A DNA stretch of 64,000 nt. Source: Microthyrium microscopicum. Lineage: Eukaryota. Each line of letters opens with the position of its first letter. The first letter of the stretch is position 1. The position numbers and the translations under genes were made by a program. This document shows, piece by piece, positions 51,575-64,000 of the stretch. The DNA is taken from positions 3,770,884-3,834,883 of the forward strand of contig MU004231.1 in NCBI GenBank assembly GCA_010405405.1, in the 5' to 3' direction. The notes under the pieces were generated by a model. It was not told where the DNA came from. It saw nothing but the letters and a program-made list of their open reading frames with translations, and made no database searches.

Positions 51575-53069
51575 TTATAATGGAGCATTAAAAACGAGGG
51601 ATACCGAACTGGCTGAGGTTAGCGGAACGTTCTCTATAAGTTTTCAAGGAGCAAACTTACTCATCTCCTGCGGTAACTATACGGCCGGTGTCGCTACTTT
51701 GCACAAATCCTAGCACACCACCTTCTTCTCCGCCGCCTCGATGACCTTTGAGCTCTTGGATAAGACCTTTTGCCGCCGCGGCCGTACCACCACGACAATC
51801 CCATCTTCTCACAATCCCATCATTCCCGGCACTAGTTAAGATCCAGCTGTTTGTAACTCTAGCACCGGAACCATGAACAAATTCAACCTTGATAACAGCT
51901 TCTTCCTCGTGGGCTGCTTCGATTCTCCGCCGGAGGGCATATCTGTGCGCCACATCGAAGAGAACAATGCTTCCATCCACGCTTCCAGCCGCAAGTAGCG
52001 TGGTAGGTGGGTCCGAAAATGAAAGTGTTTCGACCGAGTCTGTCTGTGCCTGCAAGCTGGCCAGTATCTGGCCTGCCTGACTGCCCGATGCTTGACTTCC
52101 TCCTTTTCCCTTGGCCAATTTCGGCAGACCAACCACTCTTATCATGCCTTGCGCTCCACCAACAGCCGCAAGAGTACCACCAGGTGATATAGCAATGCTA
52201 TAGAGACCTCCTTCAACCTTGAAGCGTTCGTCCTCTGGAGTCAAGGTCACCAAGGCTTGACCACCATTGGGCGCAGTGGTGCCAGCTGCTGCTGCTTCGC
52301 CCCATGGATCCCAGACGTAGAAGCTCCCATCTTCTGATATGGTAGACAGAAGGTTTCCGTCAGACGTCCAGGCGCCAGCTGTACATGGTCCAGAGTGGAG
52401 ATAGTAAGCTTGAACAGGACTTAGTGGCGCATCTTGAGATTCGCCGATTTCATATACCCAGACACTACCATCAGAAGCACCTAGTGCGATGGAGTTTGGA
52501 TGTGCTGGTGATGGACAAGATTCGACCCAGTTAATCTCCTCGACTTCTTTTGCGTTTGCCACGTTTTTCCAGACCAGTTTTGATCCCTCTGTATCTTTCC
52601 AGACGAGTACCTGACCATCCAATCCAGCAGTGACCAAATATTCTCCTCTTGGTAAGGTGAACGTTAGAGCATTGACTGAATCAGTGTGGCCTTCTAGTCT
52701 GGCAACAATATCCAAGCTCTTCCGCTCCACAGGTTGGGGGTTTGATTGATAGCTTGAAGGAAGTACTGGAGAAGGCTCAGGGGTTGAATCAAAGATGTAG
52801 GCTAGATCATCACCGCCTCCGGTTGCGACGATGCTAGGATCGGTTGGATGTTGACTAATGCAAAATATGCTGTCGTTATGGGCGTCGAAATGGGCAGAGC
52901 TGTCATTTTGCAAGGCGATGGCTTCCTCTATCCCATCATCATCTTCGTCGTCCATTGGTACATCTCCGTCCACATCAATAACTTCGTCAGCCTCCATGGG
53001 ATCGAGCATGGCGGGTTCTCGGTCATCCTCGTCATCATCATGGTGGTTGTTGGGATTTTGAGAAGACAT
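51575..53069 (-). CDS. SQT1: WD40-repeat ribosome assembly chaperone Sqt1 (AAMP-like)
   Basis: Acidic N-terminus, NDSSAHFDAHNDSIF, ATGGGDD, GHTDSVN and HSGPCTAG. Last intron 51609-51660 gives ...TAGDDSVSLVFNAPL*. Confidence 0.9.
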
Positions 53070-53225
53070 TTTGAAATGAAGAAGCGTGGGAAGAAGCGTT
53101 ACGAGCAAGAGTATAGTGTTATGCGAATGAGTCAAGGCCAATCATTTTATAACTGGTGTGTCTGGCGACGCTTATAAATCCGAGGGTGAAATTATTTGGA
53201 GTTGCTCCGGGTCTGAAATGTTCTG

Positions 53226-53284: not shown

Positions 53285-53809
53285 CAGATTAGATCAATCC
53301 AGATGGGAAAGCGCAATATGCATCTTTTGGCAACTACCGCCGACTCTCCACTCTTCTGAGAAGACTTCCTATTCCGGTAAAGTAAGTAGAAACATGTTAC
53401 TACAAAAACACCATGACCATCATCAAATTTATGTTCACCCGACTCTTATGCAAAGCATGACGTGGCTGAGTTCATCACGATCTTCAGATTCTGAGGCGCA
53501 GCCAGGGTCCAGTTGCACAGTTTTGGTTGCCTCGAATGCCTGGCCAATCATCGCGCGCCATTTGCGACCACGGGCACAGTCGCCATCTGATCCCCGCCGG
53601 TCGCTGCTCGCTGGGCTGGTTTGGCTGGTCTTGGTCCAGGCAGCAGAATAATCCCCAATTTCGCCCATCAACCTCCATTGCTGCAGCCTTTGTGATCGCA
53701 TTCCCTTTTCAACACCTTCTCTTCTCTTTTTATTTCTTCTAGTCTTTTATTTCACTTCCAATTTGTTCCGCGACCACCTTGCCACCCGGAAAACGATAAA
53801 TACTACACC

Positions 53810-56800
53810 ATGGAAACCATCGGCGGCCTGCAGCGGCGGCTGACCAGACTCTATACAGACACTAAACAATCCTGCGAAGCCGTCACCAAGACCGAAAAAG
53901 TTTCCAATCTACCTGAACTACTAGCCTTACATCTTGAATTTCGCATACAACGAGAAAGACTGTCAGCCTGGGGCTTGGAATGGAGTGATGATAATGCCTC
54001 GTCAGAAGGTTCAATTGATGAAGCTGTCGCAGAAGCTGGGGTGACCGAGCCGGTTGGGGAGGTCTTACAAAACATACACACGGTTCTCGAAGAGGCTGAA
54101 AGGATAAGCAGCGCTGGATCAGGCGCAACCCATCAGATGATCGGGTCAGAAAAGACTCGAATTCGACGGGACAACCAGGTCGTCCGTTGGTCTATTGAAG
54201 ATCGCGAAAGATATGAGCAACTCGCCAAGGATCTCAGAGATTCTATAGATCTTCTTTATGATCTATCCAAAACCCGGCGAGCATTTCGGGAAGGCACCTA
54301 TCCGACCAAAGGCAAGCAAGAACAAGAGCGAGAAGCTTCACCTCCCTTACCTCCTCCCACCAAAGCATTATTATATGGAACTCCTGCCTTTAGTGAATCC
54401 GCGGATACATTGGTCAATCCCACTCGGGCATCCACTACCAAGACTGCCTCATCATTGGAGCTTCCTACTCGACTAGATCCCACGTTATTAGAACTCCCAG
54501 CCGAACAGCCTCCCCCTTATGATCGTATAGGCGCAACACTGCCAGTACGCGTAATCGCATATCTCAAGCAACCCACGTATCCTTCTTCATCATCCAACGT
54601 CGAAGAAAGTGTTGTTCGTATTCCCGTTCTGGTAGAGTTTGCTCCTTTCGACCCGGCGTATCGGGCAACTGGAGTGGCTATCCCGAACGGGCGATTGAAC
54701 GCTCTCCTCTCTTTCTATGGAAGAGCGTCAATGGCTTTTGATGAGCACGTAGGCGGCAACCTTTCTTGTTTAGGCTTCTTTGAAGACACATCAAATCCTC
54801 GTTTTGGTTTGGTGTATGAGCTTCCAAAGTCGGTCTTGGGCTCCATGTCAGCTAGCCAGCCTGAACAAGCGAAAGTAGAGCCAACAAACCTTTTCAAATT
54901 GTTAAAGTCTTCATCTAAAGCTGCACACCCAACAAGCAAAAACCTCCCGCCTAGTCCTCCACTTGAGGACCGCTTTCGAATGGCCTTTAACCTCGTCTAT
55001 GCTTTTAAGCGAATGCACAGCGAGGAGCGATTCACTCATAAGAACGTGCACAGCGCCAATGTCATATTCTTCCCACATCCCGTCGATCAAGGCACCCACA
55101 TCGCGTCTCAAGAAGATTGGGGTCATGGCTACAAGCATGATGTCCGAACACCCTATATCACGTCCTTTGATCTATTCACGGAATTTGCTCTGGAAAGGCC
55201 AGACTCCACCCCAGGCATGAACATATACCGAAATACGGAAGATCCTTTCATATCCAGACAAACATGTGGCACTTGCAGCAATGAAGAATGCAAATGCTTC
55301 CCGTATCGATTCGACATTCATGGGTTGGCGCTAATTCTTCTTGAAGTCGGTCTTTGGCTACCTATCGCCGACCTCTACAAGCCTAAGTACACCCTTTCAG
55401 ATTTGAAGAAACGCGTTGAAGGAATCTGGCTCAAGCGACTTCGTTCTAAGAGTGGAAGTCTCTACGCTGAAGTTGTCAGAGACATGCTTCTCCAGGCATC
55501 CACCGACATGACCGAGGAATCCCAGCGGAATTCGTACCAAGAGTGGATGAGCAAGCTAGCAAGATGCTGTCAAATTGACAATCATGCCAAGAGTCCCGAA
55601 GATTCGTTACTCGGCAGCCTAGTTTTGCCACCACAAGCCATGAGGCAACAGCGTTCGTGGAGTCCCAAGCAAAGCACTTTTGGTGGATCCATTCGAAACT
55701 CCCAAGCCACTCAGATTCCATTCGCCATTCATGAATCCGACGAAGAAGATCCCAGTCAAACTTCCAAGCTTTTTCAAAGTAACCGAACTCGGTCGATGAG
55801 TGTTCCGGATAACACCAAAAACACATCAGTGCCTTCCGGAAACGACAAACTCTTGAAGGCAGCAAACACCATTCAACGAGCGTGGCGCTCTAGACAAGAT
55901 AGAGTGTCTTTTCAAGAATACCGACGCAAGGTATCCGTCATTCAAACACAGTGGCGCAAAAGAACCTCCAAGCTTTCAAAGCGTGGGTCAAATATCAATA
56001 GCCAAGTCTCAAATAGCATTGTTATTGAGTCTGAGGTTGTCAAGTCCACTACTACTGCTGAGCATACCTTTGTTCATATTGAGCACCCTGTCGTACCAAC
56101 TTCCCGTCCAAAGCTTCGAGTTCACAACGTTAAACTTCAGCCCGAGGTATTACAGAAATGGCACTCAGAATATCAACCTGGGCTCGAGAAGATTGTCATG
56201 CGTGCGCTTAGACACTCTCCGGAGTCTTGTAGCATTGAAATACACATGGTTGGTGAAACACCTGTCACTGCCAAACCCACGGTTTTTGTCACTTGCTCCA
56301 GTATCTCCAAAGTACGAAGTGCTCTGGCTCGCAAATGGACATGCGATCCCGCAATCCTTGATGTAAAGATTCGTCGGGGCAAGATCAGACGCTCAAAGGC
56401 TACGAAACCAAAGCATAACCAAGTCCCTCATCGATCCATGGCCAATGATACCGAGCAAATGCCCCTGAATCCCTATCATCAGCAACGCCCTCTTTGTGGT
56501 GCATCTATCGGTGCCTTTACGAACAAACATCTTCCTCCAGGTAAGACTCCATGTGCAGAGACTTTCCTGATTATGGCAGCTGCGGGATCTAGCTAACGGC
56601 ATCCTAGTCTCCTTTGGCGGCGTCGTAGATGTTGACGGCGAGCTGTATGGCATGACCGTTCATCATCTACTCGATGACCCTAGTGATGACGAAGAAGATG
56701 ACGAAAGTGTCTATGAGGATGCTACTGCTGGTGCGCTCAGGTCAAGTGGCCGTCGAACTAATTATGACGAACTGGAGAATATGATGACAGGTTTTGGTGA

Positions 56801-57906
56801 AAATCCAACATTGCAGCGCTTCCCTACTGATTCCATGTTTCCTTTCGAGATCTCTGATGACGAGGAAGAATTCAGCGACGACGAAGATAATGACACTGGC
56901 TACTCTTCTGATGAGAGCTCCTCTGAAGACACAGACGATAGTGGTACTCAAGGCGATATTGGAGGCATCATCGCTGGTTCACGACCTGATATCCGTGTCA
57001 CTCAACCAGCTTTGGATGATGTTGAAGACGAGTTCTTTCCCTGCCCTGAAGATCGGGATGAGGATCACCTCGACAGCCACGAACTTGGGCACGTGTATGC
57101 CTCATCCGGAATCAAACGCTGGAATCGGAAAGGCGTTTTGCACGAGATCGACTGGGCTCTGCTCAAACTCAACAAAGACAGGCTGCAGCCCTGTAATCTA
57201 ATTCAAGGCGGTAAACGCTACTGCCGTAAGCGCAGCGATGTTCGTGACGTTTCTTCTCGGCTAGTCGAACCCGTCAACCGTGGTGGATATCAACCCGACG
57301 AAGACGAGTTCCCTACTCAAGTAGCAAAGTCTGAGCAGTTGAGCAACCTGAGTGTGCATTGCTTCGGCCGCACATCCGGCTTGCAGGGTGGTGTCATTGG
57401 CAATGCCATGGCCAGCGTTCGTATCTACAAGCGGCGTAGTTTTTCCCGCTCCTGGTTCGTCATGGGCGACTTTGGTGGTATGTCTCTGTTCTTATCTCTT
57501 GTCACTTGAATCGAACTAACATGTTTCAGTGGGCGGCGATTCTGGTGCTTGGGTCATCGACAATGATGATGGTCGTGTTTGCGGCCACGTCCTTGCCTGG
57601 TGCTCACGCAACTCCATTGCGTATATCTGTCCTGCAGATGTCCTGCTTGACGACATGAAGCGCACGCTTAATGCTGACCGCATCGGCCTGCCGGGCGACG
57701 TGGAGTCAATGTCCAAGCGCGGTACCAACACATCGACGCGCTTACTCCGCAGCCCACAGAGCGACGAATCTGAGGAACTTTCTGATTTGGCACGCCTCAA
57801 TATGGGAGAACCTCCGAGCGCATTATTGCGAAGCAGGTTGAACGGCAGTGCAGTTAGTCCGCGGTTGGAGATGCTGGGACTCTATGGACAGCAGATTGCG
57901 AGATGA
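53810..57906 (+). CDS. HeLo-like + pseudokinase + IQ + trypsin-like (Ssy5/S64-like) serine protease fusion, ~1325 aa
   Basis: Exons 53810-56540, 56608-57477 and 57530-57906 total 3978 nt, with canonical introns. Motifs FRIQRERLSAWG, RWSIEDRERY, HKNVHSANV, DIHGLALILLEVGLW, IQRAWR, IQTQWR, GMTVHH, EIDWAL, GRTSG and GGDSGAW. Confidence 0.88.
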
Positions 57907-60748: not shown

Positions 60749-62422
60749 TCAAGGTCCGCCGATGCGGCTCAGTCTATGAGTCCGGCTAATTCCGGGATCA
60801 GAGTACCGACGCCGTAATCGTTCACCGAAAAACATTGCGATGTTGTCATCTTCTTCATCGTCATCATCTCCAGCATGGCTTCCAGGCCGCGAATCTATAT
60901 CCCTCTCAAGGAACCCGTATGGTTCGTTTAGAGGATATGATCGGATTGGGAGGGAAATGTGATTTGTTATTGATTCTGGGGGTGGAGGCGGCGGTGGCGG
61001 CGGTGGCGGCGGTGGACCCTGAGGAGGAGCGGCAATGGTAACATCCAAACCAGTGTGCTTTTCAAAGGTAGGCCGGAGGTTGTTTTCCAGTTCAGAAAGC
61101 TTTGTTTGTTTGATCCAGGCGTTCACACGATTGTTCGACTGGTTCAACGACTCTTCGGGTCGCAATTTTTGACCTTCTTTTGTGACGAGGGTAAATTTAC
61201 GGGACACTGGCAGTGACAAGTCCAGGGGGTAGCCAGCCGGCTCAACTGATGGTAGGTTTGGCTCGTCGACAGGGACTTTGTGGTCTTTACAGAGGAGATA
61301 AAGATTCTGTACCATATGTCGAGCTTGTGTGTACTCTTCAATCAGACCTTTACGACCTTGAAAATATTCTTCATAAAATTCGTCGTCTGTGATTCGTGGC
61401 TCTACTCCCATTTGTCTTTGCGATTCGCGGTAGTACTCATTGCTCATGAAGGCAGCATCGTAGTTATGAATATGTTCCCGGGTCAAATTCACATCACCAA
61501 TCTTGTCGTAGTATTCTCGTTCCAACGGATGCATGTTGGTGGTTGAACCACTATGGGCAGATAGCGTACCAAGATCATCATCTTGTCCTATACTTGCGGC
61601 TGTTGCAGCCGGTTCTTCGACTGACATGGAATGTGGATCGCTAGCGGCCGACGCGGCGTCAGCGTCAACGATTTTTGTTTCACGTTTCATGAGCCGGGTA
61701 TCCAAACGTATGAGCTTCAACTCTGCCTTTCCCAAAGAGGATTCCATGTTTTCCAGTTCGCGATCTCGGCTAGTTAGCGCTACAGCATCATGTCTCATGG
61801 TTTCCCACAGATTTCTAATTTTTAACAAATCATCTGCGGGAAGGGTTTGTGTCAAAGTAGCAAGTATCTTCTCTCCATTTTGCAAAAATTCGTCTCTCAT
61901 GGTTGCATGTTGGGTTCTTTGGCTGATATAATTTCGCCTATCGCGCTCTAGTTTGTTCCGCTGGCTAATGAGCTCCGCGCGACGCGTCATCACATTTTCC
62001 AAGCGTTTGAGCATCCCTTTGGAGAGGTTCGCGTGCCGTTTGACAGTACGTGTTTCCTCCACAAACATGACACGGCCTTTTTTCTCTTTCGGCTTTTTCT
62101 GTGAGCGGTCCTTGACTGTCTCGCCTCGTTTCGATGAGAAATTATGCCCTGAGAGTTCTGAATCCAGCGCAAGCGTTGTATTCGAAGGTGGTCGTGGTGA
62201 ACCTCCGTCTGAAAGAGGAGGAGGAGGCGGCGGAGGCGGCGGAGGCGGTGGTGTCGGTCCTGAATTTGGGGGAGGTGGTTGAGGCGAATTAGGTGATGGA
62301 GGTAGGGTAATCTCAATGTTTATATCCGTACGGTCCGAGATAGGAGGATTTTGGGACGGCATGGGCATATCAGGACTGGGCGCAGGGTGCCGTCGATGCC
62401 CCGTCTCTTGTTGAGGCGCCAT
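60749..62422 (-). CDS. Uncharacterised coiled-coil protein flanked by two polyproline tracts
   Basis: 565-codon open frame with first ATG at 62422. Central heptad region (ELENMESSLGKAELKL, EYYDKIGDVNL) and poly-P runs near both ends. Upstream exons are possible. Confidence 0.75.
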   Translation of the reverse strand: MAPQQETGHRRHPAPSPDMPMPSQNPPISDRTDINIEITLPPSPNSPQPPPPNSGPTPPPPPPPPPPPPLSDGGSPRPPSNTTLALDSELSGHNFSSKRGETVKDRSQKKPKEKKGRVMFVEETRTVKRHANLSKGMLKRLENVMTRRAELISQRNKLERDRRNYISQRTQHATMRDEFLQNGEKILATLTQTLPADDLLKIRNLWETMRHDAVALTSRDRELENMESSLGKAELKLIRLDTRLMKRETKIVDADAASAASDPHSMSVEEPAATAASIGQDDDLGTLSAHSGSTTNMHPLEREYYDKIGDVNLTREHIHNYDAAFMSNEYYRESQRQMGVEPRITDDEFYEEYFQGRKGLIEEYTQARHMVQNLYLLCKDHKVPVDEPNLPSVEPAGYPLDLSLPVSRKFTLVTKEGQKLRPEESLNQSNNRVNAWIKQTKLSELENNLRPTFEKHTGLDVTIAAPPQGPPPPPPPPPPPPPESITNHISLPIRSYPLNEPYGFLERDIDSRPGSHAGDDDDEEDDNIAMFFGERLRRRYSDPGISRTHRLSRIGGP

Positions 62423-64000
62423 AGGAGAAGGAAGACTGTAGACCAACTATCAGAGACAGGGTTCAAGTGGATGCCATGATGTCTCACAAGCGCTGCCTTA
62501 GGGGTGAAGTTGTACTGGCCATCAAGGTAGTACTGTTTTATTGACGATAAGATGAAAATACTCAGGAGTTCGTCAAAGGGTACCCTAGAGTATCCTGGGA
62601 AAGCCTGAGCCGCAATGGCGAGGCCCAAGGTGAGAGGATGACAGCTGGCAGGGTCAAGATATCCTGGACGTTGACTCGGAGTATATCTAGTGGCATAGGT
62701 CGAAATGATGAAGCAACGAGTGTAGTTGCAGCTTGAGGGTCAAGGAGGGAGTCAAGAGTGTAGATCCACAAGATCCACAAGTCGCCTCGCTTTAGAAGAG
62801 CCTAATTTGGCTCCCGCTACTGGGGCCCGTTGTAGTGCAGACTGGCGTTTGAGCCATGGCCCATAATGCAGCGTGGATCCACTCATCTTTGGGCTGTTTT
62901 TAGGCCCTATATTAACCCTGCACCAATGAAAGTGTTTGTATTTTAGTCGCTCCACCTGCATGAAAGACCCCCTAGAGTCCCCACGCGGCTCCTTGAGAAT
63001 TACCAAGGTTTTCGAAGCACGGCTGCCTCTATCGTAGTGTTCTTGAGTTTGTGCCATATTCAGGTGTAAAGATAAATCCTTTAGAAAGAAGTTTTGTGCG
63101 CCTCCCAATCCTACAAGTCGGTCAATCAAGTAGAGCTGCAATTTGCTTCGCCGTTGATCATGCGGCTGAGAGGCACCTAGTGATTCCGCTCGCCTCACCT
63201 TTTACCCAGGTCCGAATGAAGTATGATAGGGGAAAGCGTGAAGCTTGGGCATTAAGGATACAAACCTTAAACCCTCCACATAATGGCCATTCATCCATTA
63301 AGATGTTAAGCGTCTCTAGAGGTGTACTTGGAGGAAAAGCGATGGATAAATAAACCATTTGGGCATGGCAATAGCTGAAGCTCAAAGGGAAGCTTCCTCA
63401 CCTTTACTTCATACCTTGCCACTGGTTCGTCGACTCGTTGACATACAATGGCGAAATCGCTTCCGCAATCATGGATAGAGGCGAACAAAATCCAATTAGG
63501 GGATCGATAAGTTTGAATACTCATACCTCTTGAAGATGCGGCAAAGAACTACCCATTTGGAATATTGAACAAGTTGCTCGCTGGCTTTCATCCTTATCCA
63601 ACCAGAAAACAGGCATTCAACAAAACCATTCACAAAACCAGGGTCCATTCACTGGAGCCTACTTCGAGGTGTATATTGGGAACCTTGCTGTCTTGCTTGT
63701 GACCACCATCTCAAGATCAGCCCCAGAGAGTAGTCCCGTCGACACTAGACAATGTACAAGGCCCAGCCTCCAGGATTACCTCCATATTGGTATTTTTCTT
63801 GAAAGCCATGCAAGCTCAGCTAACCAAAAAGAAAAAACTGAATTGATGAGATACCTGCGACAAAATTTCCCTATTGAACCTCATGCTTCGAGGCCCACTT
63901 TTACGCTACTCATCGGTCAAGGACACGATCACCCCAGGTGATCGGGGACAGCTCAGTGCTAAGGACAGCTCAACGCTATCTTTTGATAATATAGGCTCGC

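What the first reader, a model, noticed from the sequence alone, without database searches (positions are those of the whole stretch)
53810..57906. One gene fusing a HeLo-like domain, pseudokinase, IQ pair and intact serine protease: candidate self-contained MLKL-like, protease-gated module
Seen: splicing two canonical introns joins three ORFs of the track into ~1325 aa. The protein carries, in order, a HeLo-type N-terminus (RIQRERLSAWG...RWSIEDRERYEQLAKDL, ~aa 1-155), a kinase-like fold, two IQ motifs and a trypsin-fold protease. The protease has His (TVHH, 56661), Asp (EIDWAL, 57150) and Ser (GDSGA, 57541). Known: HeLo/HeLo-like domains are fungal cell-death effectors (HET-S). MLKL is a four-helix bundle plus a pseudokinase. 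Proteolysis activates fungal gasdermin (HET-Q1 by HET-Q2), and yeast Ssy5 is an autoprocessed signalling protease. Inference: sensor, switch and effector may sit in one chain, with autocleavage releasing the HeLo half or the protease. Caveat: the N-terminus (METIGGLQRRLTRLY) lacks the hydrophobic Gly-rich helix of cytotoxic HET-S, so it may signal rather than kill. Homologues may already exist in databases as hypothetical proteins.
Basis: partly seen in the sequence, partly recalled or inferred. Interest (0 to 1): 0.85.

Follow-up and report, generated by a model that had tools for sequence, protein, structure and literature searches.

The report
Fungal HeLo–pseudokinase fused to NAL1-like protease
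One three-exon fungal gene encodes a 1,325-residue protein that joins a cell-death-type HeLo bundle, a degenerate kinase domain, two calmodulin-type IQ motifs and an intact serine protease whose modelled fold is most like rice NAL1; the family is widespread in filamentous ascomycetes but unstudied.

Summary
Exons 53810-56540, 56608-57477 and 57530-57906 (+), joined over two canonical introns, give 1325 aa. This is letter for letter the NCBI hypothetical protein BT63DRAFT_368139 of Microthyrium microscopicum.

- **HeLo:** Pfam HeLo, 28.3 bits against a cut-off of 23.2.
- **Kinase fold:** Foldseek hits to kinases at E about 1e-7. The catalytic loop reads H-K-N, and there is no Gly-rich loop and no conserved beta3 Lys.
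- **IQ motifs:** two matches, at aa 688 and 711.
- **Protease:** a chymotrypsin-fold domain. His929/930 and Asp1092 are kept in 78 of 78 homologues; Ser1205 is kept in 67, with 10 gaps and 1 Thr.
- **New here:** no sequence library recognises the protease. Its model matches rice NARROW LEAF 1 best (E 4.6e-9), ahead of alpha-lytic protease.

The family looks single-copy and spans several Pezizomycotina classes. The protease is its best-conserved part.

A 2025 review already notes HELL domains in kinase/pseudokinase proteins. My searches found nothing in print on the added protease.

Autocleavage, killing activity and oligomerisation remain untested. I read it as a regulated intracellular protease with an MLKL-like regulatory half. 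It is a new variant of a known kind, of moderate to high interest.

The parts
53810..56540 (+). Exon 1 (aa 1-910 plus the first base of codon 911): HeLo, linker, kinase-like domain, IQ pair, pre-domain and the start of the protease core
56541..56607 (+). Intron 1: 67 nt, GTAAGA donor, CTAAC branch site, TAG acceptor, phase 1
56608..57477 (+). Exon 2 (aa 911-1201 in part): protease N-barrel with His and Asp, and the acidic insert
57478..57529 (+). Intron 2: 52 nt, GTATGT donor, CTAAC branch site, CAG acceptor, phase 1
   Evidence: P0008 from another species reads through the same position.
57530..57906 (+). Exon 3 (aa 1201-1325 and the stop codon): GDSGA serine, end of the protease, variable tail
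53810..54304 (+). HeLo domain, aa 1-165: helices at 6-24, 35-60, 69-76, 79-102 and 129-161
   Evidence: Pfam HeLo 28.3 bits, E 1.8e-6, cut-off 23.2. HeLo matched in 33 of 35 family members. Helices come from the model.
54305..54484 (+). Pro-rich linker, aa 166-225; residues 168-216 have pLDDT below 50
   Evidence: 33% mean identity
54485..55585 (+). Kinase-fold domain, aa 226-592 (DUF7580/Pkinase-like), catalytically degenerate
   Evidence: Foldseek MerTK E 3.9e-7. Family profile against CLK1, E 3.1e-4. DUF7580 matched in 22 of 35 and Pkinase in 17 of 35 members.
55037..55060 (+). Catalytic loop H410-K-N412-V-H-S-A-N417. The HRD Asp is replaced by Asn; the family consensus is H-K-D-V-N-S-S-N.
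55871..55972 (+). IQ pair: IQRAWRSRQDR at aa 688-698 and IQTQWRKRTSK at aa 711-721
   Evidence: motif match, shuffled mean 0.046 per protein; conserved in the Dothideomycetes rows shown; Pfam IQ matched in only 2 of 35 members
56105..56395 (+). Alpha/beta pre-domain, aa 766-862: four strands and two helices, ending in the conserved basic loop KIRRGKIRRSK
   Evidence: Model pLDDT 93-96. The NAL1 alignments span 518-568 columns against 361-381 for full-length bacterial protease hits; whether they include this pre-domain was not seen.
56396..56479 (+). Basic linker, aa 863-890, with conserved HRSM and NP.HQQRP motifs; low pLDDT. It is a candidate processing or regulatory site by inference only.
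56480..57699 (+). Chymotrypsin-fold serine protease, aa 891-1257 (spans both introns)
   Evidence: Foldseek NAL1 E 4.6e-9, alpha-lytic protease TM 0.69. Mean identity 77% and 63%.
56661..56666 (+). His929-His930 in the motif GMTVHHLL; His930 aligns by motif to the catalytic His
   Evidence: 78 of 78 conserved
56682..56981 (+). Acidic, Ser-rich disordered insert, aa 936-1035, between the catalytic His and Asp
   Evidence: pLDDT below 50; 37% mean identity
57150..57152 (+). Asp1092 in the motif HEIDWALLKL
   Evidence: 78 of 78 conserved
57541..57543 (+). Ser1205 in the motif GGDSGAW
   Evidence: 67 Ser, 10 gaps (mostly models that stop before or skip this segment), 1 Thr, of 78

Best explanation
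The locus is one expressed-type fungal gene for a 1325-aa cytosolic multidomain protein. Its core activity is most likely regulated intracellular proteolysis.

**Shown**
- An N-terminal HeLo helical bundle.
- A disordered linker.
- A kinase-fold domain that in this species lacks the Gly-rich loop, the beta3 Lys, the alphaC acidic residue and the HRD Asp, so it is a pseudokinase.
- A long disordered linker carrying two IQ motifs.
- An alpha/beta pre-domain followed by a chymotrypsin-fold protease with a complete His-Asp-Ser triad kept across the family. The whole C-terminal module is structurally most like rice NAL1.

**Inferred**
- The C-terminal protease is the catalytic output.
- The HeLo-pseudokinase half acts as an MLKL-like switch, or as a membrane-targeting or oligomerising part.
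- The IQ pair brings calmodulin control.
- The conserved basic linker before the protease and the acidic insert next to the active site are candidate regulatory or processing elements.

Whether the protein cuts itself, and whether the HeLo domain permeabilises membranes, is not known.
For: **Gene model.** The spliced product equals the NCBI protein. Conserved residues span both junctions.

**HeLo.** Pfam HeLo scores above its cut-off and matches 33 of 35 homologues.

**Kinase fold.**
- Foldseek hits to kinases at E 3.9e-7 and weaker.
- The CLK1 alignment pairs HkDvnssN with HTDLKPEN, FDLF with VDFG and yRhPE with YRAPE.

**Degeneracy of the kinase.**
- Position 412 is D in 65, N in 11, E in 1 and S in 1 of 78; the window protein has N.
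- Position 276 is E in 67 and D in 11. No residue at 216-345 is Lys in 80% or more of the 78 sequences; only mixed K/R columns at 221, 253 and 305.
- Position 297 is acidic in 73 of 78 but N in the window protein.
- D and N exchanged at least 3 times on the tree.

**Protease.**
- The model has pLDDT 80.8 and pTM 0.82.
- Foldseek gives NAL1 at E 4.6e-9 to 1e-7 with probability 1.00. Next come alpha-lytic protease, TFPA, SGPA and HtrA1.
- The triad is conserved.
- The motifs TVHHL, DWALLKL and GDSGAW sit at the canonical places relative to the modelled strands.

**The protease is the best-conserved part.** It shows 77% and 63% identity, against 49% for HeLo and 42% for the kinase.

**Coupling of the parts.**
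- Of 37 long proteins carrying the protease module, 27 also carry HeLo and/or DUF7580.
- A variant with a PX domain fits a membrane link.

**IQ motifs.**
- Two matches in the window protein. 43 of 78 homologues have at least one, against a shuffled mean of 0.046.

**Other.** The ESM Atlas neighbours of the C-terminal part include clusters tagged Nal1_C (19% of members) plus Trypsin (13%), and Peptidase_S64 (12%).
Against: - There is no expression, cleavage or activity data.
- The coordinates of the models were not available to me, so the triad geometry was not measured.
- The NAL1 likeness is structural only: TM 0.44-0.52, rmsd 7.5-12 Å. The profile of the module found no NAL1 or other protease among PDB sequences at E<=10. 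Pfam gave only Trypsin_2 at E 0.17.
- The HeLo fold itself was never compared with HET-s or MLKL. The 1-600 model returned only kinases in the 50 rows shown, with no MLKL among them. The N-terminal profile found no HET-s in PDB sequences.
- Pfam IQ reaches E<=0.01 in only 2 of 35 members, and not in the window protein.
- The IQ pair is absent from the two Sordariomycetes rows shown.
- Most family members keep the HKD Asp, the loop Asn (72 of 78) and the DFG-type Asp (77 of 78). Some atypical kinase activity in relatives cannot be excluded.
Confidence: 0.5

Rival explanations
1. This is the first reader's reading: a self-contained, protease-gated death module. The built-in protease cuts its own chain and frees the HeLo half, which then permeabilises the membrane like HET-S or MLKL.
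For: - A HeLo domain is present.
- The triad is intact and conserved.
- Conserved motifs lie in an otherwise disordered basic linker, HRSM and NP.HQQRP.
- Gasdermin activation by a protease in fungi is cited in the review passages seen.
Against: - The conserved linker motifs lie before the protease, not between HeLo and the kinase. That HeLo-kinase linker shows only 33% identity.
- The N-terminal 25 residues are polar (mean hydropathy -0.57), and the HeLo region has no hydrophobic 19-residue window (maximum 0.48).
- The family looks single-copy and tracks taxonomy, unlike typical het or immune genes.
- No partner genes lie nearby.
- No cleavage data exist.
Confidence: 0.15
2. The kinase domain is an active, atypical kinase in most of the family, and the protein is a kinase-plus-protease signalling enzyme. 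The window's copy has merely lost the catalytic Asp.
For: - Family consensus H-K-D: D in 65 of 78.
- The loop Asn is kept in 72 of 78 and the DFG-type Asp in 77 of 78.
- Arg247 is kept in 76 of 78 and could replace the missing Lys.
Against: - There is no Gly-rich loop and no residue in the N-lobe that is Lys in 80% or more of the 78 sequences.
- The beta3 position is Glu or Asp in 78 of 78.
- Asp412 was exchanged for Asn at least 3 times without loss of the domain.
- Pkinase scores stay below the Pfam cut-off: best 30.7 against 31.7.
Confidence: 0.12
3. The protease module serves mainly as an oligomerisation scaffold, a NAL1-type cage that clusters HeLo-pseudokinase arms. Catalysis would be secondary.
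For: - The best fold match is NAL1.
- NAL1 assembles into trimers and hexamers through its ATP-binding and protease domains (PMC12012508, section 5 read).
Against: - The invariant triad and the GDSGAW motif argue for catalysis.
- No counterpart of the NAL1 N-terminal strand-exchange domain was identified.
Confidence: 0.1
4. This is an annotation artefact: two neighbouring genes, HeLo-kinase and protease, wrongly merged.
For: - Many database entries of 430-900 aa hold only the C-terminal module.
- In Escovopsis weberi the HeLo part (ESCO_001547) and the module (ESCO_001546) are separate records.
Against: - One uninterrupted ORF covers aa 1-910. It includes HeLo, kinase, IQ, the pre-domain and the first conserved residues of the protease core.
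- About 78 homologues of 1100 aa or more share the full order.
- M1 and the N-terminus are conserved.
- The adjacent locus tags in E. weberi point to a split model, not to two genes.
Confidence: 0.03

Closest known systems
MLKL (vertebrate necroptosis executioner) and plant MLKL-like proteins
   Same: An N-terminal HeLo/four-helix-bundle-type domain is followed by a kinase-fold domain with degenerate catalytic motifs. [quoted passage not shown]
   Different: - No brace helices are predicted; the linker at 168-216 is disordered.
- MLKL is not among the 50 Foldseek rows shown.
- There are about 730 extra residues carrying IQ motifs and a protease.
- No RIPK3-type partner is known.
- The N-lobe here lacks the beta3 Lys. 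That MLKL keeps this Lys is recalled, not tested.
Rice NARROW LEAF 1 (NAL1), a serine protease that forms a hexameric cage
   Same: It is the best structural match to the C-terminal 496 aa (E 4.6e-9, probability 1.00). Both have a small alpha/beta domain with four strands followed by a two-barrel serine protease with His-Asp-Ser (NAL1: H234, D291, S385; PMC12012508, section 5 read). A conserved basic loop ends the fungal pre-domain, and NAL1 binds ATP phosphates through basic loop residues; this parallel is a lead only.
   Different: - No sequence-level match was found.
- TM is only 0.44-0.52.
- The fungal protein has a roughly 100-aa acidic insert between His and Asp.
- It is fused behind HeLo-pseudokinase-IQ.
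- ATP binding and hexamer formation are untested.
HET-S/HET-s of Podospora anserina (HeLo prototype)
   Same: It matches Pfam HeLo, PF14479. The ESM Atlas neighbours of aa 1-170 are HeLo clusters, with scores of 0.80-0.89, which the tool rates as leads only.
   Different: - There is no prion-forming domain.
- There is no hydrophobic N-terminal segment.
- It is not paired with an NLR gene in the window.
- The N-terminal profile did not find HET-s among PDB sequences.
Yeast Ssy5 (peptidase S64), an autoprocessed signalling endoprotease
   Same: Both are intracellular chymotrypsin-type proteases behind a large N-terminal regulatory region. One ESM Atlas neighbour cluster has Peptidase_S64 on 12% of its members. 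The Ssy5 biology is recalled, not read here.
   Different: Pfam Peptidase_S64 matched 0 of 10 C-terminal fragments at E<=10 and 0 of 35 full proteins at E<=0.01.
HET-Q2/HET-Q1 and other fungal protease-gasdermin pairs
   Same: A protease is linked to a membrane-targeting death domain in fungi (review passages).
   Different: - Those proteases are S8 subtilisins or CHAT caspase-like, and act in trans on a separate gasdermin encoded next door.
- Here a chymotrypsin-fold protease and a HeLo domain share one chain.
- No gasdermin neighbour is present.

Membership tests
HeLo domain (Pfam PF14479) | Match to the family profile at or above the curated cut-off | tested here: met
   P0004 scores 28.3 bits against 23.2, E 1.8e-6, covering aa 40-101 and profile positions 36-95 of 205. 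33 of 35 homologues match at E<=0.01. Across relatives the matches together cover profile positions 9-202.
HeLo domain (Pfam PF14479) | Helical-bundle fold that superposes on HET-s or the MLKL four-helix bundle | tested here: inconclusive
   The model shows five helices, with pLDDT 69-95 from residue 35 on and below 51 for residues 1-30. The fold search of the 1-600 model listed only kinases.
HeLo domain (cytotoxic HET-S type) | Hydrophobic N-terminal segment able to insert into membranes | tested here: not met
   Residues 1-25 have mean hydropathy -0.57, with 4 K/R and 3 D/E. The highest 19-residue window in aa 1-165 is 0.48.
MLKL-like architecture | N-terminal bundle followed by a kinase-fold domain lacking catalytic residues | tested here: met
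   HeLo is followed by a kinase fold. The catalytic loop reads HKN, position 276 is E, position 297 is N, and there is no GxGxxG.
MLKL-like architecture | Two-helix brace joining the bundle to the pseudokinase | tested here: not met
   Residues 168-216 have pLDDT below 50 and no helix.
MLKL-like architecture | Activation by an upstream kinase, followed by membrane permeabilisation | not testable with these tools
   This needs experiments.
Active eukaryotic protein kinase | Gly-rich loop, beta3 Lys, alphaC Glu, HRD Asp, catalytic-loop Asn and DFG Asp | tested here: not met
   The window protein keeps only N417 and D454. D412 is N, position 276 is E, position 297 is N, and there is no Gly-rich loop.
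IQ calmodulin-binding motif | Match to [FILVM]Qxxx[RK]xxxx[RK], or to Pfam IQ | tested here: inconclusive
   There are two motif matches, at aa 688 and 711, against a shuffled mean of 0.046 per protein. Q712, W715 and R716 are conserved in 90% or more. Pfam IQ is below threshold for the window protein and reaches E<=0.01 in only 2 of 35 members. Calmodulin binding is untested.
Chymotrypsin-fold (clan PA) serine protease | Two-barrel fold | tested here: met
   Foldseek probability is 1.00 to NAL1, alpha-lytic protease (TM 0.69), TFPA (TM 0.74), SGPA and HtrA1. The model has pLDDT 80.8.
Chymotrypsin-fold (clan PA) serine protease | His-Asp-Ser triad in the canonical order and motif context | tested here: met
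   TVHH, DWALLKL and GDSGAW are present. His and Asp are kept in 78 of 78; Ser in 67, with 10 gaps and 1 Thr. The distances between triad residues in the model could not be measured.
NAL1 family | Sequence-level homology to NAL1 or Pfam Nal1_C | tested here: not met
   The profile of the module found no NAL1 chain among PDB sequences at E<=10. Pfam gave no Nal1 family hit; the local Pfam copy may lack PF25819. One ESM Atlas neighbour cluster carries Nal1_C on 19% of its members, which is a lead only.
NAL1 family | Pre-domain plus protease arrangement like the NAL1 ATP-binding and protease domains | tested here: inconclusive
   NAL1 chains take the top 34 ranks with 518-568 alignment columns, but TM is 0.44-0.52 and rmsd 7.5-12 Å. 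No residue-level alignment was available.
NAL1 family | Trimer or hexamer cage; ATP bound by the pre-domain | not tested
This needs experiments.
Peptidase S64 (Ssy5) | Match to Pfam PF08192 | tested here: not met
   0 of 10 fragments at E<=10 and 0 of 35 full proteins at E<=0.01.

The most novel reading that the evidence does not exclude
This would be a single-chain fungal counterpart of necroptosis. In it, a NAL1-type cage protease is the activator, in place of an RIPK3-type kinase. Under calcium/calmodulin control through the IQ pair, the C-terminal module would oligomerise and cut within its own chain or that of neighbouring copies. That would release or cluster the HeLo-pseudokinase half at the membrane. 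The same fold family would then link plant NAL1, yeast Ssy5-type signalling proteases and fungal cell-death machinery.
Probability: 0.1. Interest if true: 0.85.

Novelty: new variant of a known kind. Interest (0 to 1): 0.62.

Why it matters
[quoted passage not shown] How the fungal ones that lack a prion switch or an NLR are controlled remains open. This family puts a HeLo domain, an MLKL-like pseudokinase, calmodulin-type motifs and an apparently active protease on one conserved chain. That gives a directly testable system: Ser1205Ala, tagged ends, calmodulin binding.

The protease escaped every sequence library used here and was recognised only by its modelled fold. Current domain surveys of fungal cell-death genes would therefore list these proteins simply as HeLo or kinase proteins. 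The likeness to NAL1, a yield gene of rice whose wider family is little described, hints at a broader eukaryotic family of cage-type intracellular proteases.

Tried and rejected
**Searches that found nothing useful**
- Pfam on exons 2 and 3 alone gave no family.
- The full-length profile A1 against PDB sequences showed only kinases among the 60 rows shown of 125.
- The C-terminal profile A4 against PDB sequences gave only an acidic low-complexity match to APC15 at E 7.9.
- Pfam on 10 C-terminal fragments at E<=10 gave only Trypsin_2 at E 0.17 in one fragment, plus three chance-level names.
- The N-terminal region against PDB sequences gave importin at E 0.26, taken as chance.
- The N-terminal profile A6 against PDB sequences gave designed helical proteins at E 0.15 or weaker, and no HET-s or MLKL.
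- A6 against the protein collection returned only short proteins, 3 from contigs under 1 kb and 3 marked partial, that look like pieces of this same family. It built no bridge to HET-s-type small proteins.
- A scan of bacterial and archaeal genomes with A4 matched 36 pattern stretches, none confirmed as a relative.

**Complex prediction**
The queue was full each time.
- The tool then reported itself unavailable. No job ran, so oligomerisation stays unchecked.

**Literature searches without a relevant hit**
- 'DUF7580': 0 papers.
- HeLo + pseudokinase + trypsin: 5 papers, none on this architecture by title or abstract.
- 'narrow leaf 1' + serine protease + phylogenetic + fungi: 0 papers.
- Ssy5 + NAL1: 0 papers.
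- Passages from PMC10197012, PMC9815663 and PMC4986451 do not describe it.

**Not checked**
- No supplements were opened.

**Considered and rejected**
- Two separate genes: see the rival explanations.
- Membership of S64: the Pfam test was not met.

Full report
**1. The observation**

The + strand between 53.7 and 57.9 kb holds three ORFs in different frames: 53696-56596, 56571-57509 and 57520-57906. The sequence shows an ATG at 53810 and two introns with canonical fungal signals.
- Intron 1 is 56541-56607: 67 nt, GTAAGA...CTAAC...TAG.
- Intron 2 is 57478-57529: 52 nt, GTATGT...CTAAC...CAG.
- Both are in phase 1.

Joining 53810-56540, 56608-57477 and 57530-57906 gives a 3978-nt CDS and a 1325-aa protein. 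It is identical to P0004, the NCBI record 'hypothetical protein BT63DRAFT_368139 [Microthyrium microscopicum]'. That species is a Dothideomycete of the order Microthyriales.

Without splicing, the frames stop at 56596 and 57509. The residues that span the junctions are conserved in homologues. One homologue's gene model, P0008, reads through the same second intron position.

Exon 1 alone encodes aa 1-910. That covers HeLo, the kinase-like domain, the IQ pair, the pre-domain and the first conserved residues of the protease core. The fusion therefore does not rest on the intron calls.

**2. The N-terminal half**

*HeLo.* Pfam finds HeLo (PF14479) in the full protein at 28.3 bits, above the curated cut-off of 23.2. 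It matches 33 of 35 homologues at E<=0.01.

An AlphaFold2 model of aa 1-600 was built on a 63-row alignment (pLDDT 77.3, pTM 0.66).
- It shows helices at 6-24, 35-60, 69-76, 79-102 and 129-161.
- Residues 168-216 form a disordered linker.
- A kinase fold follows.

*Kinase fold.* Foldseek against the PDB returns only kinases in the 50 rows shown. MerTK is first at E 3.9e-7, followed by EGFR, IRAK4, BRAF and the JAK1 pseudokinase. MLKL is not among them.

A profile of 62 full-length homologues aligns with CLK1 (E 3.1e-4). It pairs H-k-D-v-n-s-s-N with HTDLKPEN, F-D-L-F with VDFG and y-R-h-P-E with YRAPE.

Column counts over 78 homologues:
- The HRD-type Asp (position 412) is D in 65, N in 11, E in 1 and S in 1. 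The window protein has N.
- The loop Asn417 is kept in 72.
- The DFG-type Asp454 is kept in 77.
- The beta3 position 276 is E in 67 and D in 11.
- No column in aa 216-345 is Lys in 80% or more of the 78 sequences; only mixed K/R columns at 221, 253 and 305. There is no Gly-rich loop.
- The alphaC position 297 is acidic in 73, but N in the window protein.

A FastTree built on the C-terminal module columns, which leaves the kinase columns out, needs at least 3 D/N changes. The window's clade (P0004, P0005, P0007; support 97) has N while its sister sequences have D.

'Pseudokinase' is therefore well supported for this protein. It is likely for the family too, though relatives keep more of the catalytic loop.

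*N-terminal segment.* The HeLo part has no hydrophobic segment.

**3. The IQ pair**

Two matches to [FILVM]Qxxx[RK]xxxx[RK] lie at aa 688 and 711. Among 78 homologues, 43 have at least one match in this linker, against a shuffled mean of 0.046 per protein. Q712, W715 and R716 are conserved in 90% or more.

Both motifs are visible in the ten Dothideomycetes rows from P0004 to P0080. The first is lost in P0084 and P0085, and both are absent in the two Sordariomycetes rows. Pfam IQ stays below threshold in the window protein and reaches E<=0.01 in 2 of 35 members. Calmodulin binding is an inference.

**4. The C-terminal half**

No sequence library recognised it.
- Pfam found no peptidase family in 35 full proteins.
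- Pfam found only Trypsin_2 at E 0.17 in one of 10 fragments.
- A profile of the module found no protease among PDB sequences.

An AlphaFold2 model of aa 765-1260 was built on a 62-row alignment (pLDDT 80.8, pTM 0.82).
- It starts with an alpha/beta pre-domain of four strands and two helices (pLDDT 93-96).
- A low-confidence basic linker follows.
- Then comes a two-barrel domain, interrupted by a disordered acidic stretch of about 75-100 residues.

Foldseek ranks rice NARROW LEAF 1 chains first: E 4.6e-9 to 1e-7, probability 1.00, TM 0.44-0.52 on the target, 518-568 alignment columns. The bacterial chymotrypsin-fold enzymes come next: alpha-lytic protease (E 1.8e-4, TM 0.69), TFPA (TM 0.74), SGPA and HtrA1.

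According to PMC12012508 (section 5 read), NAL1 consists of three parts:
- an N-terminal domain;
- a small ATP-binding domain of four strands and a curved helix;
- a serine protease domain with H234, D291 and S385, which is active as a hexameric cage.

The fungal pre-domain plus protease resembles the last two parts. I could not see a residue-level alignment.

The motifs GMTVHHLL, HEIDWALLKL and GGDSGAW sit where a chymotrypsin-fold enzyme has its His, Asp and Ser. His929/930 and Asp1092 are kept in 78 of 78. Ser1205 is kept in 67, with 10 gaps and 1 Thr; most of the gapped models end before or skip this segment, and several have the length of models without the last exon.

The ESM Atlas neighbours of this part include clusters tagged Peptidase_S64 (12% of members) and Nal1_C (19%) plus Trypsin (13%). 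These are leads only.

**5. Distribution and context**

- The exon-1 query found 93 proteins. The 40 rows that carry an NCBI species name are 40 different species, 38 of them Dothideomycetes, plus Colletotrichum truncatum and Ophiocordyceps unilateralis.
- A profile of the C-terminal module scored 1589 cluster representatives at E<=1e-3. Of these, 496 reached 1e-10 and 236 reached 1e-30.
- I picked 37 long proteins from the best 150. 27 carry HeLo and/or DUF7580 (HeLo 17, DUF7580 24), 8 have no Pfam match and 2 have other N-termini. One variant has a PX domain between HeLo and the kinase, and one has a WD40 propeller.
- Further searches name Rhynchosporium, Cercophora, Escovopsis, Apiospora, Neofusicoccum, Monilinia, Golovinomyces, Pseudogymnoascus, Penicillium brasilianum and Beauveria. 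The family therefore spans several classes of Pezizomycotina.
- Many short entries look like split or truncated models. In Escovopsis weberi, for example, ESCO_001547 (HeLo) and ESCO_001546 (protease module) are separate records.
- No relative was found in the bacterial and archaeal genome collection.
- The neighbours in the window are a WD40 protein, a PEBP protein, an MFS transporter and an FAD-binding oxidase. None is an NLR, a gasdermin or an amyloid partner.
- Mean identity to the window protein by part: protease 77% and 63%, pre-domain 50%, HeLo 49%, kinase 42%, IQ pair 41%, linkers 16-33%.

**6. How it most likely works**

*Shown:* the architecture, the degenerate kinase, the intact conserved triad and the NAL1-like fold.

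*Inferred:*
- The protease is the best-conserved part and keeps its triad, so it is probably the catalytic output.
- The HeLo-pseudokinase half probably acts as an MLKL-like switch, or as a membrane or oligomerisation device. The PX-bearing variant supports a membrane link.
- The IQ pair probably adds calmodulin control.
- The conserved basic stretch (KIRRGKIRRSK...HRSM...NP.HQQRP) before the protease is a candidate regulatory or processing element.
- So is the acidic, Ser-rich insert beside the active site.

It is possible, but it has no direct support, and several findings sit poorly with it:
- the N-terminus is polar;
- the HeLo-kinase linker is weakly conserved;
- the family looks single-copy and orthologue-like;
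- there are no partner genes nearby.

I could not test oligomerisation, because complex prediction never accepted the job.

**7. Comparison with what is known, and novelty**

A 2025 review (PMC12881547, passages seen) already notes that some fungal HELL domains sit in proteins with a kinase/pseudokinase domain, like MLKL. The HeLo-pseudokinase pairing is therefore a known kind.

The same passages mention S8 and CHAT proteases that control gasdermins. The word 'trypsin' does not occur in that paper.

None of my searches found the further fusion to a chymotrypsin-fold, NAL1-like protease and an IQ pair. Nor did the passages read from PMC10197012, PMC9815663 and PMC4986451. The library is limited to open papers, so this is not proof of absence.

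The proteins themselves are in public databases under three kinds of name:
- 'hypothetical protein';
- 'Protein kinase domain-containing protein';
- 'HeLo domain containing protein' or 'het-s domain protein'.

I rate it a new variant of a known kind. Interest is 0.62.

Noticed in passing
window 55262-55297 (aa 485-496 of the protein): The kinase-like domain carries an insertion with four Cys (C486, C489, C494, C496). It is present in 21 of 78 homologues, all four Cys are kept in those 21, and the other 57 have a gap. It may be a small zinc-binding knuckle near the activation segment.
   Followed up: no
window 56363-56395 (aa 852-862) and on to about 56404: A conserved basic loop (K/R-V-R-R-G-x-I-R-R-S-K; V854, R855, G857, R861 and S862 kept in 90% or more) ends the pre-domain. 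NAL1 binds ATP phosphates through basic loop residues of its small domain (PMC12012508, section 5). This is a possible nucleotide-binding site and a lead only.
   Followed up: partly
P0135 and P0203 (homologues): These are architectural variants of the family. P0135 has a PX domain (E 5e-11) between HeLo and DUF7580. P0203 has a WD40 propeller between HeLo and the protease module.
   Followed up: partly
P0357 (ESCO_001547) and P0122 (ESCO_001546), Escovopsis weberi: The HeLo part and the protease module of this family are annotated as two records with adjacent locus tags on the same 3.83-Mb contig. This is probably a split gene model. Many of the 430-900 aa 'module only' entries may have the same cause.
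   Followed up: no
P0008 (homologue): Its gene model contains 22 extra residues just before VGGDSGAW. This looks like an unspliced intron at the same position as intron 2 of the window gene.
   Followed up: no
window 51657-53141 (-): A 494-codon open frame encodes a WD40-repeat protein (Pfam WD40, E 5.6e-28). It is transcribed divergently from the HeLo gene, about 670 bp upstream of its ATG.
   Followed up: no
window 60749-62446 (-): A 565-codon open frame has no Pfam match at E<=0.001.
   Followed up: no
window 56682-56981 (aa 936-1035): A roughly 100-residue acidic, Ser-rich disordered insert lies between the catalytic His and Asp. It is present across the family but poorly conserved in sequence (37% identity; pLDDT below 50). 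Its role is unknown.
   Followed up: no
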